The notes beneath the pieces are model-generated. The model was not told where the DNA came from. It did no database searches and worked only from the letters and a program-made list of their open reading frames with translations. Both the position numbers and the translations under genes were made by a program. Shown here one piece after another: positions 18,763-63,800 of a DNA stretch of 64,000 bases (position 1 is the first letter of the stretch; every line of letters begins with the position of its first letter). The stretch comes from Octopus vulgaris (taxonomy: Eukaryota): the NCBI GenBank assembly GCA_951406725.2, contig OX597822.1, forward strand, positions 22,320,001 to 22,384,000, read 5' to 3'.

Positions 18763-18836
<74 letters not shown>

Positions 18837-18911
18837 TCTATAAAATAATATGTTACAATTACTCAATAGTCAAGATAAAACTCTGAGTTTCAGATGCCAT
18901 ATATATATATG

Positions 18912-32242: not shown

Positions 32243-34560
32243 GTTTAACGTCTGTTTTCCATGCTGGCACGGACGGTTTGACTGATGTCTAGAAAGCTAG
32301 CAGCTGCAACAGGCTCCATTCTGATCTGACAATGTTTCAACAGCTGGATACCATTCCTAATGTCAATCACTCTGAGAGTGTAGTGGGTGCTTTTTATGTG
32401 CCACCAGCACATGGAGCCAGTCAGGTGGGCCTAGCATCGATTATGTTTGGATGGTGCTTTTTACATGCCACCGGCATGGGAGCCAGTCAGGCAGTCCTGG
32501 CATAGATCACATTCAGATAGTGCTTTTTATGTGCCACTGGCATGGGAGCCAGTCAAGAGGCACTGGCATTGACCACATTTGGATGATGCATTTTATGTGC
32601 CACCGGAACGGGGGCCAGTCAAGAGGCACTAGTCACAGCTACGATTTTGATTTTATTTGACTCAACAGGTATTCTCAAGCATATCACATCACCCAATGCA
32701 TCAGCCTTGGCTGTGATCTCACTTTAGTTGCCAGGTCTTGTCAATCACAGCATATCTCTAAAGGTTTTGGTCTCCTGTCATTGCCTCTGTGAGGCCCAAC
32801 TTTCAAAGGTCATGCTTCACCACCTCATCCCATATCTCCCTGGGTCTACTTCTTCCACAGGTTCTTTCCACAGTTAGGGTGTTGCACTTCCTCACACTGC
32901 TGTCCTCATCCATAAGTAACATGACCATACCAGTGCAATTGTCTCTCTTGCACACCACATTTGATGCTTCTTATGTCCAACTTTTCTCTCAGAGCACTCA
33001 CACTCTGTTGTGTATGCGTACTGACATTTCGCATCCAGCAGATCATACCAGTTTCATTTCTTTCAAGCCTACGCATGTTTTCAGCAGTCATGGCCGTGTA
33101 GCATGGCAGATCGCACACATGCATCATACAGTCTACCTTTCATCCTGAGCAAGAGGCCCTTAGTTGCCAGCAGAATAAGAATAGCTTGGCACAAAACAAA
33201 ACTGCATCTCATCTATGCTAACTTTCTCCCTAATTAGTTGGGCTATGATCCTCTCTGTAACTTTCATCACCTGATCCAATAATTTGATACCCCTGTAGTT
33301 ATTTCTATCTAAAGCATCACCATTACCCTTGTAGCAGTTGACTATGGTGCTGCTACACCAGTCATTGGGTATGACTCCTTCATGAACTACCTGATTTATG
33401 ATGCGGGTGATAAGACCATAATCCACACCATACAATATTTTAAACATCTCAGCAGTGATTCCTGATGGGACAGGTGCTTTCCCTGTCTTCATATTCTTAA
33501 TTGCTTTATCTACCAGGGTACTATCTATTCAGATAGCTGGTCAATCAATTGCATCAACCATTGGCAAGCTCTCTTCCTCCCATTCATTCTCCACATTCAG
33601 CAGTCTTTCATAATAGCAACTCCAAGCCTCTTTCTTTGCAGAATCCTTAAATGCAAGAGCACCGTCATCCATGCAGATACATTTCTCTCCTATGACATCC
33701 TGTTTTCTCTCACTCACTGTCATGCAACCCAAAATACTTCATTTCTTTGGTCCTCGCATTATTGAACATTGGCAAACTTCTTTTCTGCTAATCCCTTGGC
33801 TATATATACCTGTCTCCTAGCTTCCTTTCTGGCTATCTGATACAGTCCCCTGCTACCCCCACTCTTCCAAGCCTGTTTCTTTGCTCTAATGGCCCTGTCT
33901 ACTGTATTGTTCCACCACCATGTTACCCTACGCCTGGAAGGGACTTTGCACCAGACACTGATTTGGTCTGTGGCACTCAGCAAGCTGACTTGCAGGAATT
34001 CTCAACTGCCTTCTATGTCACAGGACTGTAGCTCCTCTTCCCTCTCTTCAAATTTCTCAGTAAGGATATCCCTAAATCTCTGACCATGTGAAGGTTCTTA
34101 AGCTTCCAAGTCCCTTTTTTCCAGATTGGTTTGCTTTTTGGCATCCTTCTGGCCTCGAGTCTAAAGTGATTAATAATAAGTCTATGCTGGAGAGTACATT
34201 CTTCACCAGGGAGGGTCTTTGTATTTAAGAGCAACCATGCATCCCACTGTCTGGTGAGAATGAAATCAACTTGGCTAGCAGAGTCACCTGACTGGTAGGT
34301 TATTGGATGGCTGGCTGGCTTTTCTCTCAAAGCACTTCCACTCTGTCGAGTATGCACACTGACATTAAACATATAGCGGAGCATACTGGCTTTGTTCCTT
34401 ACAAGCTTACACAGTCCTCAGCAGTCACGGCCCATGTTTCACTGTGATGTAGCATGGCTGTTCATACACATGCATCATACAGTCTTCCTTTTACTCTGAG
34501 CGAGTGGCCCTTTGTCTCCAGCAGAGGTAGGAGCTCTCTGAACTTTACCCAGGCTATACA
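32243..34560 (-). mobile_element. Internally deleted, composite RTE LINE
   Basis: ORFs 34013-34384 (endonuclease end SQVDF/QHRL), 33759-33983, 33541-33732, 33160-33492 (NYRGIKLL) and 32906-33127 (LHWYGHV) plus 3' UTR; the YADD core is missing. Confidence 0.9.
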
Positions 34561-51070: not shown

Positions 51071-51823
51071 CAAGTGAAATCAAAATCAAATTTGATGACT
51101 GGCATCCATGCTAGCGGGGTGCAAAGAGCACCATACGAGTGTGATCGTTTGACAGAGCGGCTAACCAGCTTCCGTGCCATGGCACATAAAAGGGCACCAT
51201 TCGACTGTGATCGTTACCAACGTCACCTTATTGGCACCTGTGCCGGTGGCATGTGTAAAAAGATTCGAGCACGGTCATTGCCAGTACCGCCTGACTGGCC
51301 CCTGTGCCATGGCATGTAAAAGGGCACCATTTGAGCATGATCGTTACCAACGTCGCCTTACTGGCACCTGTGCCGATTGCATGTGTAAAAAGATTCGAGC
51401 ACGGTCATTGCCAGTACCGCCTGACTGGCCCCCATGCCATGGCACATAAAAGGGCACCATTCAAGTGTGATCATTACCAACATCGCCTTACTGGTACCTG
51501 TGCCGGTGGCATGTGCAAAAAGATTCGAGCGCTGTCATTGCCAGTACCGCCTGACTGGCCCCCATGCCATGGCACGTAAAAGGGTACCATTCGAGCGTGA
51601 TCATTACCAACGTCGCCTTACTGGCACCTGTGCCGGTGGTACGTAAAAAGCAACCACTACACTCTTGGAGTGGTTGGCGTTAGGAAGAGCATCCAGCTGT
51701 AGAAACACTGCCAGATCAAGATTGGAGCCTGGTGCAGACATCTGGTTCGCCAGCCCTCAGTCAAAATCATCTAACCCATGCTGGCATGGAAAGTGGACGT
51801 TAAACGATGATGATGAGGATGAT
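51071..51823 (+). mobile_element. RTE 3' UTR/tail containing a 130-bp tandem array
   Basis: Ends GGACGTTAAACGATGATGATG; units start at 51176, 51306, 51436 and 51566. Confidence 0.88.
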
Positions 51824-58451: not shown

Positions 58452-59140
58452 ACTTTGATGCTTTGATACTTTGATAGGTTTCGGCCATTATTGGCCCAGG
58501 CCATGTCTAACTTAATAGCACCACCTGGTGAAGTCTTTCAAGTCAGAATTTGGGCACTATGGCCCACTCAAGTAGAGAGTTATTGTTTACAGAGACATAT
58601 CCGGGTGTAGGGGGTTTATCCGGGATTTCTTGAAGGAATCTGTCCAAAGACTTTTTGAACCCTATAGGGTCAGTTTCTGTTTTAATGTGTTTTGGTGTAA
58701 TGTTAAAGAGAGCGGGGCCAATTGAGGTGAAATAATTGTGCCGTATTGTTGTTATGAGATGAGAGTGCGATTTTTGTTTTGGACGGATGGCACGGGGCCC
58801 AAGCCTTGGATGTACCTTAAAGGTGATGCCAACATCATTTGGGCAATGCTGATGGAATATTTTCCACATCATGCAGATGATGTAGCGCTCACGGCGACGT
58901 TGGAGAGAATAAAGTTTTAGCTTTTCTAGTCGACCCCAATAGTTGAGGCCTGTCATGCCATCTATCTTTTTTGTGATTGCCCTTTGAGGTGCTTCAACTT
59001 TTATGATACTTTGTTTTGTGTGGGGAGACCACAGTGGACAACAGTATTCAAGGTGGGGTCGGGCAAAAGTGGAGAAGAGAAGGATAATGGTGTGGATATC
59101 TCTCGACTGGAAAGTTCTGAGAATCCAGGAACACATTCTC
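58452..59140 (-). mobile_element. CR1-clade LINE 3' fragment (open 197-aa C-terminus)
   Basis: RPHLEYCCPLWSPH, LYSLQRRRERY and FKKSLDRFL..IPD.P motifs; (GTATCAAA)-like tail. Confidence 0.9.
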
Positions 59141-59344
59141 TCTAAGTCTCTCTAAAAGAGAACAGCGGCAGCATTCCCGGAAAATAATAGTTATCGCCAT
59201 ACTAATATGGCATTCTTATAAAAATAAGAAAAAAGCTGTCCGCTTATTAGCTCCATGAGGCCATCGCCTTAAGTTAGCTATTTGATACACAAACTGTATC
59301 CATATAACCTTCGAACAAGGGAGGTCAGTTGCTCCACACTACTT

Positions 59345-59404
59345 GACCGGCAGCTACAGACGCGTTTCGGAGTATTGCCCCTTTTCAATGCAGCGTAGCC
59401 AGCC
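59345..59404 (-). ncRNA. Minimal type-I hammerhead ribozyme
   Basis: Reverse complement of the motif at 59884-59943; loop II is CAAUA instead of AAAUA. Confidence 0.78.
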
Positions 59405-59883
59405 AGTAGGTGTCGCTTCCGACAATCTCTGTTCGATGGTTTTATTTACCTAGTTTCGGTGGAATACATCCACTTGTTTTCAATAATAGAAATATTAAAA
59501 TAACTAAGTCTCTCTAAAAGAGAACAGCGGCAGCGTTCCCGGAAAATAATAGTTATCGCCATACTAATATGGCATTCTTATAAAAATAAGAAAAAAGCTG
59601 TCCGCTTATTAGCTCCATGAGGCCATCGCCTTAAGTTAGCTATTTGATACACAAACTGTATCCATATAACCTTCGAACAAGGGAGGTCAGTCGCTCCACA
59701 CTACTTATAAGAATGCCATATTAGTATGGCGATAACTATTATTTTCCGGGAACGCTGCCGCTGTTCTCTTTTAGAGAGACTTAGTTATTTTAATATTTCT
59801 ATTATTGAAAACAAGTGGATGTATTCCACCGAAACTAGGTAAATAAAACCATCGAACAGAGATTGTCGGAAGCGACACCTACT

Positions 59884-59943
59884 GGCTGGCTACGCTGCAT
59901 TGAAAAGGGGAAATACTCCGAAACGCGTCTGTAGCTGCCGGTC
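59884..59943 (+). ncRNA. Minimal type-I hammerhead ribozyme
   Basis: Stem I GCUGCA/UGUAGC, core UUGAAAA (59900-59906), stem II GGGG-AAAUA-CUCC, GAAA, palindromic CGCG loop, GUC site (predicted cleavage after 59929). Confidence 0.78.
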
Positions 59944-60459
59944 AAGTAGTGTGGAGCGACTGACCTCCCTTGTTCGAAGGTTATATGGATACAGTTTGTG
60001 TATCAAATAGCTAACTTAAGGCGATGGCCTCATGGAGCTAATAAGCGGACAGCTTTTTTCTTATTTTTATAAGAATGCCATATTAGTATGGCGATAACTA
60101 TTATTATCTATATATATATATACATATATATATATGTATATATATATGTATATATATATGTGTATATATATGTGTATATATATATGTGTATATATATATG
60201 TGTATATATATATGTGTATATATATATGTATATATATATGTGTATATATATGTATGTGTATATATATGCATGTATATATATATATGCATGTATATATATA
60301 TGCATGTATATATATATATGTATGAATATATATATGTATATATATGTATGTATATATATATATATGTATGTATATATATATGTATATATATGTATATATA
60401 TGTATGTATATATATATATGTATGTATATACATATGTATATATATACAAACACATATAT

Positions 60460-60734
60460 ATCATCATCATCATTTAACGTCCGCTTTCCATGCTAGCATG
60501 GGTTGGACGGTTCAACTGGGGTCTGGCAAGCCCGAAGGCTGCACCAGGCCAGTCAGATCTGGCAGTGTTTCTACAGCTGGATGCCCTTCCTAACGCCAAC
60601 CACTCCGAGAGTGTAGTGGGTGATTTTATGTGCCACCGACACAGGTGCCAGACGAGGCTGGCAGACGGCCACGCTCGGATGGTGTTTTTTTATGTGCCAC
60701 CGACACAGGTGCCAGACGAGGCTGGCTGACGGCC
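60460..60734 (-). mobile_element. Duplicate RTE 3' terminus
   Basis: Essentially identical to ~60890-61165. Confidence 0.92.
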
Positions 60735-60742
60735 TATATATG

Positions 60743-60778
<36 letters not shown>

Positions 60779-60802
60779 TGTATGTATACATATATGTATA
60801 TG

Positions 60803-60849
<47 letters not shown>

Positions 60850-60888
60850 GTGTGTGTGTGTGTATATATATATGTATTTATATATATG

Positions 60889-63800
60889 TATCATCATCAT
60901 CATCATCATCGTTTAACGTCCGCTTTCCATGCTAGCATGGGTTGGACGGTTCAACTGGGGTCTGGCAAGCCCGAAGGCTGCACCAGGCCAGTCAGATCTG
61001 GCAGTGTTTCTACAGCTGGATGCCCTTCCTAACGCCAACCACTCCGAGAGTGTAGTGGGTGATTTTATGTGCCACCGACACAGGTGCCAGACGAGGCTGG
61101 CAGACGGCCACGCTCGGATGGTGTTTTTTATGTGCCACCAACACAGGTGCCAGACGAGGCTGGCTGATGGCCACGCTCGGATGGTGTTTTCTTATGTGTC
61201 ACCGACACAGGTGCCAGACGGGGCTGGTGGACGGCCACACTCGGATGGTGTTTGTTACGTGCCTTCAGCACGGAGGCCAGTCGTTGCGGTACTGGCTACG
61301 ATCACGTTCGGATGGTTTTCTTATGTGCCACCGGCACTGGTACCACAAGGATACAAATTCCATTGATGTTCATCTATTTTGATTTGGTTCGATTTGATTT
61401 GATTTGATTCGATTTGATTCTCACTTGCCTCAACAGGTCTTCACAAGTGTCACAAGAAGGAAGGTATGCACAGGTGGACTGACTACGTCCCAGGTAGGGG
61501 CCACGGATTATGGCTTCACTAGTCTTGCCGGGTCTTCTCACGCACAGCATACTTCCATAGGTCTCGGTCTCTAGTCATTTCCATGGTGAGACCTAACGTC
61601 CGAAGGTCGTGCTTCACCACTTCGTCCCAGGTTTTCCTGGGTCTACCTCTTCCACGGGTTCCCTCAACTGCTAGGGATTGGCACTTTCTCACACACCTAT
61701 CTTCATCCATTCTCGCCACATGACCATACCAGCGCAATCGTCTCTCTTGCACACAACAACTGATGCTTCTTAGGTACAACATTTCTCTCAAGGTACTAAC
61801 GCTCTGTCGAGTAAGTACACTGACATTACACATCCATCGGAGCATACTGGCTTCGTTCCTCACAAGCTTACGCATGTCCTCAGCAGTCACGGCCCATGTT
61901 TCACTGCCATGTAGCATAGCTGTTCGTACACATGCATCATACAGTCTGCCTTTTACTCTGAGCGAGAGGCCTTTAGTCACCAGCAGAGGTAAGAGCTCCC
62001 TAAACTTTGCCCAGGCTATTATTATTCTAGCAGTTACACTTTCAGCGCACCCGCCCCCACTACTGACTTGGTCACCTAGATAGCGGAAGCTATCAACTAC
62101 TTCTAGTTTTTCCCCCGGAAAGTGACGGAAGTTGTTTTCTGCAGATTTTCGGAGGTCAATGCTCCAGAGCATCTGCCACATACAAAAACTATCTTCCCAG
62201 TTAGCCTACCTTTGGCATTGCTGCACCTCTTATGTGTCCATAGCTTACACTGGGTACATCTTATAGAGTTTCTACCTACACCTTTTCTACAGATCGAGCA
62301 GGGCCATCTTCCTGAGGATATTTGTGGATTTTCTAACTTTCTACTTATTAGTACTTTGGTTTTAGCTAGGTTGACTCTAAGGCCCCTCGATTCTAAACCC
62401 TCCTTCCACACCTGGAACTTCTCCTCCAGTTCTGATAGTGACTCAGCGATTAGAGCGAGGTCGTCAGCATAGAGGAGCTCCCAGGGGCAACCTGTCTTGA
62501 ATTCCTCCACAATTGCCTGGAGGACTATGATAAATAGGAGGGAGCTGAGTACTGAACCCTGGTGGACCCCAACCTCTACCTTGAATTCTTCTGTGTACAT
62601 GCTGCCAACTCTAACCTTACTTACGGCATCTCTGTACATGGCTTGCACAGCCCTCACCAGCCATTCATCTATCCCTAGTTTCCTCATTGACCACCAGATG
62701 AGGGATCGGGGAACCCTATCAAAGGCTTTCTCCATGTCAACGAAAGCCAGGTACAGGGGCTTATCTTTGGCTAGGTATTTCTCCTGCAGCTGCCTTACCA
62801 GGAATATAGCATCAGTGGTGCTTTTCCCTGGGACAAACCCAAACTGCATCTCATCTAAACTAACTCTCTCTCTAATTAGTTGGGCTATGACCCTCTCCGT
62901 AACCTTCATTACCTGATCCAACAGCTTGATACCTCTGTAATTATTTGTATCCAGGGCATCACCTTTACCTTTGTAGCAGTTGACCAGTATGCTGCTACAC
63001 CAGTCATTGGGTATGACTCCTTCGTGTATCACCTGGTTGACTATACGGGTGACTAGGTTATAGCCGACACTGCCAGATATTTTGAGCATCTCTGCAGTAA
63101 TTCCTGATGGGCCTGGGGCTTTCCCTGTCTTCATGCTTCTAATTGCCTTAGCTACCACGGAACTATCAACTCGGATAGCTGGTCCCTCTGTTGGGTCAAC
63201 ATTCGGCAGACTCTCTTTATCCCATTCATTTTCTTTATTCAGCAACCTTTCATAGTGGCATCTCCAAACCTCTCTCTTTGCATCCTCATTTAGCGCAAGT
63301 GAACCATCATCCATGCGAACAAACTTCTCTCCTACCACATCACGATTCTCTCTCACACACTGTCTTGCAACACGAAATACCTCAAGTCTTTCATCCTCAC
63401 AGCTCAGAACATTGGCAAATTTTTTCTTATCCACTTCCCCTCTAGCTAAATAAACCTGTCTCCTAGCTTCCCTTTTGGCTGTCTGATACAATTCCCTGCT
63501 ACCACCGTTCTTCCAGTCCTTCCAAGCCTGTCTCTTTTGTCTAATAGCCCTGTCAACCACAGTGTTCCACCACCATGTTACTCTGGGTCGAGATGGTACT
63601 TTGCTCCATCCACAGATCTGGTCAGTGGCTGTCAGCAGATTGTCCCGTAGGAATCTCCAGTTGTCTTCCACATTAAGTGAAGCTATATCCCCTTCTATTT
63701 CGTCAGAGGCTTCGAGTAGTATGTCTCTAAATCTCTGTCCATTTGCAGGATCTTTAAGCTTCCAGACCCTTCTCCTCCAAGCTGGTCTTCTTCTGGGCAA

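What the first reader, a model, noticed from the sequence alone, without database searches (positions are those of the whole stretch)
59884..59943. Hammerhead core variant: U3-A8 covariation and palindromic stem III
Seen: core UUGAAAA rather than CUGANGA, so both partners of the C3-G8 tertiary pair have changed to U3-A8, which argues for conserved function rather than decay. Stem III is one A-U pair around CGCG (ACGCGU palindrome). Stem I extends past an internal loop (GGCUGGC/GCCGGUC). The only difference between the two copies falls in loop II. Known: minimal hammerheads with palindromic loop III cleave as dimers. Inference: active as a dimer, and missed by CUGANGA-only searches.
Basis: partly seen in the sequence, partly recalled or inferred. 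Interest (0 to 1): 0.7.

Follow-up and report, generated by a model that had tools for sequence, protein, structure and literature searches.

The report
Dimer-type hammerhead in a mobile retrozyme
This 60-base motif is a predicted self-cutting RNA (hammerhead) inside a 362-base non-coding repeat with over a thousand young copies in this animal genome; the element type and its odd core pair are already known, but its relatives changed a short palindrome twice and kept it palindromic, which suggests that two ribozymes work as a pair.

Summary
The motif is a type I hammerhead (core U3-A8, helix III = one A-U pair around CGCG, predicted cut after 59929) in a 362-bp ORF-less tandem unit; 1,249 exact core matches in the genome against 5 in the control. 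Copies lie in (TA)n as two outward-facing arms; 40 of 46 two-armed insertions pair two different fixed ends, as a young Hydra-type Penelope-like element in the same genome does. This is an animal non-LTR retrozyme. U3-A8 is published (2011, 2014). The dimer idea gains real support: subfamilies carry CGCG, CAUG or CUAG in loop III, always palindromic, and a natural tandem folds into the double hammerhead as its lowest-energy state. Limits: the 3-8 pair never varies inside this family; a sister family spread a C3·A8 mismatch; the two copies in this window face opposite ways and cannot pair in one transcript; no cleavage or RNA data. The scan has noted such elements before in this genome and another. 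New member of a known kind; modest interest.

The parts
59884..59943 (+). Type I hammerhead, right-arm copy (U3-A8 core; private A at 59911)
59900..59906 (+). Core strand UUGAAAA: U3 = 59900, N7 = 59904 (A, C, U or G in relatives), A8 = 59905
59907..59919 (+). Helix II (4 bp) and loop 2 (CAAUA in the family; CAAAUA-like in older subfamilies)
59923..59929 (+). Palindrome ACGCGU (A15.1, loop CGCG, U16.1) and C17; predicted cut after 59929
59891..59893 (+). UAC side of internal loop 1 (partner U59936); predicted tertiary contact with loop 2
59345..59404 (-). Second hammerhead copy, left arm, family-type loop CAAUA
59708..60069 (+). One full 362-bp retrozyme unit, no long ORF in six frames
59705..60108 (+). 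Right arm; ends at fixed end A (unit position about 35-38) against (TA)n
59142..59706 (-). Left arm (1.56 units), inverted; stops at unit position 77, 21 nt short of fixed end B, at a LINE-like fragment
59743..59805 (+). 63-nt 'tail' between the two fixed ends A (unit 35) and B (unit 98)
60109..60461 (.). (TA)n-rich microsatellite, the target of the right arm

Best explanation
The motif is a type I hammerhead inside a young 362-bp non-coding retrozyme that is likely cut only when two tandem ribozymes pair through the ACGCGU palindrome, and that is likely pasted into (TA)n by a Penelope-like element's enzyme. Steps: (1) shown: head-to-tail arrays of the unit exist at many dispersed loci. (2) inferred: arrays are transcribed through. 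(3) predicted: two neighbouring ribozymes swap partners and form a shared 6-bp helix III (double hammerhead); U3-A8 stands in for C3-G8; loops 1 and 2 dock; each cuts after C17 and frees a 362-nt monomer. (4) inferred from mussel and axolotl retrozymes: a host ligase closes the monomer to a circle, which as a single ribozyme with a one-pair helix III cuts itself poorly. (5) inferred: a Penelope-like RT/GIY-YIG protein, most likely of the Hydra clade, nicks both strands of a (TA)n run and starts two cDNAs at two fixed points 63 nt apart; each runs back across the cut site for a part of a unit up to several units; the two cDNAs join to give the inverted two-armed insertion (the anatomy is shown, the enzyme is inferred). 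The copy in this window is probably a dead end.
For: Copy number and youth: 1,249 vs 5 control matches, 593 vs 10 for N7 other than A, partly other families; best 40 candidates mostly 98-100% identical, tandem at 362 bp on many contigs; no long ORF. Stems: on 43 distinct rows 93.3% of cells pair, 10 of 21 pairs change on both sides, covariation 0.333 vs 0.195 shuffled and at most 0.124 slid (related rows, so not a probability). Dimer: the central palindrome pair is U-A 22, G-C 17, A-U 4, broken 0; 32 of 34 old-subfamily motifs found by DNA similarity read CUAG (by eye); a tree from sequence outside the ribozyme needs two lineage-level double swaps CUAG/CAUG/CGCG; with both centre bases free, 93 of the 100 listed of 532 matches are palindromic, 25% expected (hand count; CCGG ones belong to a sister family); the free MFE of a natural tandem is the double hammerhead, -150.9 vs -131.3 kcal/mol for two single ones. 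Tertiary-contact bases named for the Schistosoma ribozyme (loop 1 U and last C, 3' A of loop 2) are invariant or at least 90% kept. Circle-folded monomer z -6.1 against 60 shuffles. Insertion anatomy: 71 of 81 arms end at unit 28-42 or 88-104, 63 of these 71 abut TA-rich DNA; 40 of 46 two-armed insertions pair end A with end B, 0 AA, 0 BB; a young element with a 708-aa ORF bearing the Hydra marks RWK, DKT, CxCX5C, CxxC, CxH (median 99.3% identity among 12 copies) shows (TA)n targets and long-end/short-end pairing in 6 of 7 two-armed insertions (by eye). Literature.
Against: No cleavage, circle or transcript is shown. A C3·A8 mismatch subfamily of the sister family spread (29 of 41 C3 hits, about 21 loci, with tandem arrays), so a perfect 3-8 pair is not needed to spread. 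5' ends of arms do not pile at the cut site (3 of 114 within 3 nt), which fits a circle but also an uncut multimer. In PMC11167929 ribozyme-dead RNA was inserted as well as wild type in vitro; in the 2026 preprint 8 of 9 frog retrozyme dimers did not cut in vitro. No sequence link to a driver: no blastn hit of the unit to either young autonomous family, and the tail aligns to the Hydra-type tail no better than shuffles (289 of 500). The 708-aa protein hit nothing in Pfam, NCBIfam or PDB, so its assignment rests on motifs. The palindrome evidence amounts to two events in this family plus one state in a sister family, and CAUG/CGCG are not fully resolved on the tree.
Confidence: 0.72

Rival explanations
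1. The ribozyme is real and dimer-type, but cutting and circles are not part of transposition: the enzyme copies uncut tandem transcripts, and the ribozyme only trims or regulates the RNA.
For: Ribozyme-dead RNA is inserted in vitro (PMC11167929); a C3·A8 subfamily spread; no 5' ends at the cut site; most arms are short (15 of 116 longer than 760 nt).
Against: Stems, palindrome and contact bases are kept across about 30% divergence of the unit, so source copies were selected for the fold; arrays of up to about ten units suit a circular template; mussel and axolotl relatives make circles.
Confidence: 0.17
2. The unit is the pseudo-LTR (end piece) of an autonomous Penelope-like element whose full-length master was not found; the arrays are truncated products.
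For: Inverted arms, tail and (TA)n targets are those of autonomous elements; U3-A8 was first seen in such ends; retrozymes are proposed to arise from them. Only two autonomous families were examined.
Against: Units follow each other directly with no ORF, in young and 70-85% subfamilies alike; tblastn with the 708-aa protein over 125 loci and the window and 50 more loci found only separate neighbouring insertions, none joined to a unit; the ribozyme has canonical, not minimal, architecture.
Confidence: 0.07
3. The hammerhead is a decayed passenger in a satellite-like repeat that grows by DNA-level events.
For: No Rfam match; no RNA on record; non-consensus core.
Against: Compensatory changes in helices I, II and the palindrome; dispersed short arrays with fixed ends in (TA)n are not what unequal crossing-over makes.
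Confidence: 0.04

Closest known systems
Animal non-LTR retrozymes (Cervera and de la Pena 2020, PMC7229834; axolotl HHR_Amex1, mussel 350-390 bp repeats; parts 2-4 of 6 read, supplement not readable)
   Same: [quoted passage not shown]
   Different: U3-A8 core; insertions are two inverted arms with two fixed ends in (TA)n, not described in the parts read; cutting and circles untested here.
Hammerheads of Penelope-like element ends, incl. the U3-A8 variant of Schistosoma Cercyon (PMC4209133, parts 1-2 of 4 read); natural U3-A8 in PMC3088659 (passages)
   Same: Same U3-A8 core change, palindromic helix III, dimer model.
   Different: Those are minimal (long helix II, short helix I, poor loop 1) and flank an ORF; this one has canonical helices and loops and no ORF.
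Hydra-clade Penelope-like elements (Craig et al. 2021, PMC8557442; passages and section 11 read) and Poseidon of Anolis (Frangieh et al. 2024, PMC11167929; parts 1-2 of 4 read)
   Same: Inverted 5'-truncated arm, tail at one end, (TA)n targets, two internal start points of reverse transcription, cutting and extension of both DNA strands.
   Different: They encode their own enzyme; the tail here is 63 nt (30-40 in the papers); no sequence homology to the Hydra-type element found in this genome.
Li, Clavereau and Pollet 2026 preprint (10.64898/2026.07.22.740005; parts 1-3 of 5 read)
   Same: Proposes that animal retrozymes are non-autonomous riders and offspring of Penelope-like elements.
   Different: Vertebrates mainly; argues from co-occurrence and homology, not from insertion ends; here no parent end was found.

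Membership tests
Type I hammerhead ribozyme | Core CUGANGA / GAAA / NUH around three helices, open end in helix I | tested here: met
   All core bases present with the published U3-A8 substitution; N7 is the varying position.
Type I hammerhead ribozyme | Helices supported by compensatory changes | tested here: met
   10 of 21 pairs change on both sides; 93.3% of cells pair.
Type I hammerhead ribozyme | Loop 1 - loop 2 tertiary contact bases (canonical type) | tested here: met
   Loop 1 U and last C, 3' A of loop 2 invariant or at least 90% kept; bases named in PMC2632901 passages. Sequence only; docking itself not shown.
Type I hammerhead ribozyme | Match to an Rfam hammerhead model | tested here: not met
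   No hit at gathering score or E up to 10; C3-G8 loci L041 and L049 were missed as well in the 150 of 156 rows listed. Library coverage, not a defining trait.
Type I hammerhead ribozyme | Self-cleavage after C17 | not testable with these tools
   Needs a bench assay.
Dimer-cleaving (double) hammerheads | Helix III of 1-2 bp with a palindromic loop that forms a shared helix in tandem copies | tested here: met
   Palindrome kept through swaps; double form is the free MFE of a natural tandem.
Dimer-cleaving (double) hammerheads | Dimer cuts faster than monomer | not testable with these tools
   Needs a bench assay.
Animal non-LTR retrozyme | Tandem unit of 150-450 bp with one type I hammerhead in each unit | tested here: met
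   362 bp; 27 of 64 loci carry two or more ribozymes on one strand.
Animal non-LTR retrozyme | Non-coding, no LTR-type layout, dispersed copies | tested here: met
   No long ORF; copies on many contigs; no ORF joined to a unit.
Animal non-LTR retrozyme | Strongly self-paired monomer circle | tested here: met
   Predicted -118.9 kcal/mol vs -84.1 +/- 5.7 in 60 shuffles, 64% paired.
Animal non-LTR retrozyme | Expressed as linear and circular monomer RNA | not testable with these tools
   Only assembled contigs of runs of unrecorded kind were offered.
Elements moved by Penelope-like machinery | Inverted arm, tail at one end, AT-rich or (TA)n target | tested here: met
   against the description.
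Pseudo-LTR of an autonomous Penelope-like element | Unit flanks an RT + GIY-YIG ORF | tested here: not met
   No joined ORF in the loci searched; no similarity to the ends of two young autonomous families. The whole genome was not scanned.

The most novel reading that the evidence does not exclude
This retrozyme family is a natural experiment that proves the double-hammerhead in living cells: lineages rewrote the centre of the loop III palindrome twice (CUAG, CAUG, CGCG; CCGG in a sister family) and always kept it self-complementary, so the palindrome works as a family-specific pairing code that licenses cutting only in tandem RNA; and its insertions record a two-start mechanism in which a Hydra-clade enzyme primes both target strands at two different fixed points of one RNA circle.
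Probability: 0.5. Interest if true: 0.5.

Novelty: new member of a known kind. Interest (0 to 1): 0.3.

Why it matters
The kind (animal retrozyme), the core change (U3-A8) and the dimer model are in print, so a specialist would not be surprised. What this family adds is test material: ready-made natural variants for the dimer model (three palindromes in one family, a fourth in a sister family, matched and mismatched pairs can be mixed), a natural C3·A8 subfamily to ask whether cutting is needed for spreading, and a near-strict end A + end B rule that speaks to the open question of how Penelope-like elements make inverted insertions and tails. It also shows that well over a thousand such ribozymes in one genome escape Rfam 15.

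Tried and rejected
Rfam: no hammerhead family at any threshold tried; the U3-A8 change as sole cause of the miss is not supported. Expression: no RNA holder listed; four contig sets laid hold the unit and its older subfamilies, but their kind is a guess, so they are not used for or against expression; two of them show mostly A>G and T>C differences, which cannot be told from subfamily differences without matched DNA. C3-G8 members of the window's family: none among 62 matches (one row is this family, with a U3-A8 core and a chance upstream word), the 100 listed, or the 41; these patterns fix stem II, so more distant members could be missed. I first took the CCGG palindrome and the C3·A8 subfamily for members of this family; 12 of 12 such loci fetched proved to be a separate family. 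Parent element: locus L103 looked like a unit ahead of an ORF but is an insertion into an old broken element; the two young autonomous families share no end sequence with the unit. 5' ends at the cut site: not enriched. Pfam, NCBIfam and PDB gave no hit for the 708-aa protein; the Atlas search could not be run for it. Lunse et al. 2017 and Przybilski and Hammann 2007 were not available; I saw them only as citations. A paper on this element in cephalopods was not found in searches, nor further U3-A8 papers beyond PMC4209133 and PMC3088659 in searches; the supplement of PMC7229834, which lists more species, could not be read and may hold this family.

Full report
1. Observation. The second copy is on the - strand at 59345-59404 and differs within the ribozyme only at 59911, the first base of loop II. 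The family base there is C (one row with A; C in 4 of 4 laid runs), so the copy that was flagged is the mutated one. Rfam 15 finds no hammerhead here.

2. The host element. Both copies lie in a 362-bp unit without a long ORF. The insertion 59142-60108 is two arms that point outwards: 1.56 units on the - strand and 1.1 units on the + strand, ending in (TA)n on the right and at a LINE-like fragment on the left. The genome (2.8 Gb, 227 contigs; an animal, octopus-like by recalled repeat features and by earlier AI notes, not determined here) holds 1,249 exact matches to the core pattern against 5 for the reversed control, and 593 against 10 with another base at position 7, some of them other families. 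The 40 best candidates of a DNA search give 170 matches, mostly 98-100% identical, in arrays of one to about ten units on many contigs. Older subfamilies at about 82-87% and 70-80% identity have the same layout.

3. Insertion anatomy. In 46 loci of contig C1 taken in order from the listing (two already held were skipped), 71 of 81 arms end at unit position 28-42 (end A) or 88-104 (end B), and 63 of these 71 abut TA-rich DNA. With 18 distinct loci added, 46 of 64 loci are two-armed with both ends readable: 40 pair A with B, 6 have one other end, none is AA or BB; 17 are single-armed and 1 is cut. Inverted arms, a tail at one end and microsatellite targets are the marks of Penelope-like elements (PMC8557442, passages), and a Poseidon protein cuts and extends both strands and starts at two internal sites that bound the tail (PMC11167929). 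The genome has a young element with a 708-aa ORF (L076) that shows the Hydra-clade marks RWK, DKT, CxCX5C, CxxC and CxH (12 copies 99.3% alike at the median), inserts in (TA)n and pairs a long with a short end in 6 of 7 two-armed insertions (read by eye). It shares no sequence with the unit (tail alignment no better than 289 of 500 shuffles), nor does a second young family. The driver is therefore inferred from anatomy, not identified.

4. Is the fold under selection? I aligned 44 ribozymes: 18 CGCG-type found by a pattern that fixes the core, 5 fetched, and 21 of the 34 old-subfamily motifs (13 left out: second copies, copies with indels or rearrangements, and L161, L176, L180). On 43 distinct rows 93.3% of cells pair and 10 of 21 pairs change on both sides; covariation 0.333 against 0.195 shuffled and at most 0.124 slid. 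Rows are related, so this is no probability. Three pairs of helix I, two of helix II and four of the outer stem switch. The bases that make the loop-loop contact in the Schistosoma ribozyme (U and last C of internal loop 1, 3' A of the CAAAUA loop; PMC2632901 passages) are invariant or nearly so, and one subfamily has CAAAUA itself. This is the canonical type I layout (helix I 6 bp, helix II 4 bp), not the minimal one.

5. The dimer. The two centre bases of loop III read GC in young, AU in intermediate and UA in old subfamilies, with no break in 43 rows; 32 of the 34 old motifs read CUAG (by eye). A tree built from 150 nt outside the ribozyme (45 of 50 loci usable) sets CUAG apart at 100/98 and needs two lineage-level double swaps; CAUG against CGCG is less well resolved. 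A genome pattern with both bases free gave 532 matches, 0 control; of the 100 listed, 93 are palindromic (CCGG 40, CUAG 38, CAUG 9, CGCG 6; hand count) where 25 would be expected. The CCGG ones belong to a sister family with an unrelated 358-360-bp unit (12 of 12 fetched). These bases cannot pair inside one hairpin, so keeping the palindrome points to pairing between two copies. In independent events it is two swaps and one further state: suggestive, not overwhelming. A natural tandem (L018, 422 nt) folds freely into the double hammerhead, -150.9 kcal/mol, against -131.3 for two single ribozymes. The palindromic loop III and the dimer model are known.

6. The 3-8 pair. [quoted passage not shown] In the window's family it is fixed: 43 of 43 rows, 34 of 34 old motifs. 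A long-helix-II family of this genome holds both C3-G8 and U3-A8 with the same flanks, which is the real covariation. Against a strict need: all 41 C3 matches have A8, and 29 of them form one subfamily of the sister family at about 21 loci, with tandem arrays. Either C3·A8 keeps some activity or cutting is not needed to spread.

7. This locus. Its two ribozymes are on opposite strands; a transcript across it folds into one 400-bp hairpin that buries the ribozyme. It cannot form the double hammerhead in cis and is probably a dead end. 27 of 64 loci have two or more ribozymes on one strand and could be sources.

8. Mechanism and rivals. Best reading (0.72): transcription of tandem arrays, dimer cutting after C17, host ligation to a stable circle (predicted fold z -6.1; shown for mussel and axolotl), and two-start target-primed copying by a Penelope-like enzyme. 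Arms read across the cut site (5' ends there in 3 of 114), which fits a circle or an uncut multimer; that rival gets 0.17, given. An end piece of an unseen autonomous element gets 0.07, a dead passenger 0.04.

9. Novelty. New member of a known kind. I found no paper on this family in searches, but could not read the supplement of PMC7229834 or Lunse et al. 2017 (seen as a citation). Earlier AI notes of this scan describe the same kind of element, the two-end rule and U3-A8 cores in this genome and another; a look-up by sequence found nothing. Interest 0.3.

Noticed in passing
L191-L196, L202-L207 (e.g. G000:C1:67409518): A second retrozyme family (unit about 358-360 bp, no blastn match to the window's unit) with the same canonical layout, U3-A8 core, CCGG palindrome, inverted arms and two ends in (TA)n; its end region aligns to that of the window's family better than 497 of 500 shuffles.
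   Followed up: partly
L202-L207; G000:C4:80857199-80857949: A subfamily of that second family carries a C3·A8 mismatch in the core and still spread to about 21 loci, with tandem arrays.
   Followed up: partly
window 59965-59977 (unit 258-270): 5' ends of arms cluster here: 22 of 116 against 4.2 expected (window chosen after seeing the data). It lies in the long helix that closes the ribozyme rod; a stall of reverse transcription or a transcript start.
   Followed up: partly
L076:2461-4584 (-) and 3' end; L077-L090: Young Hydra-type Penelope-like element with a 708-aa ORF that hits nothing in Pfam, NCBIfam or PDB; its end holds a hammerhead-like motif with core CCGAAGA (C at position 4) and a near-palindromic helix III.
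   Followed up: partly
L211-L222: A second very young family with a related GIY-YIG-like domain (many copies 96-100% alike, open frames up to 722 aa) ending in (TA)n; its 3' end was not searched for a ribozyme.
   Followed up: partly
L041-L047, L052-L055, L091, L095, L105, L111, L116: An older hammerhead family with a long helix II and the same ACGCGU palindrome occurs with both C3-G8 and U3-A8 cores.
   Followed up: partly
window 58460-59141 (-): 3' fragment of a LINE-like element (open frame of 186 codons, CR1/L2-like by recalled motifs; no Pfam hit) abuts the left arm, which lacks its last 21 nt and its (TA)n; perhaps a later insertion that clipped it.
   Followed up: partly
window 18811-18898 (-): Remnant (84%) of the 3' end of the Hydra-type element next to a (TA)n run.
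   Followed up: no
window 60304-61263, 32386-32630, 51174-51656: A 439-bp duplication of a SINE-like repeat with 63-66-bp internal tandem units; related units elsewhere in the window.
   Followed up: no
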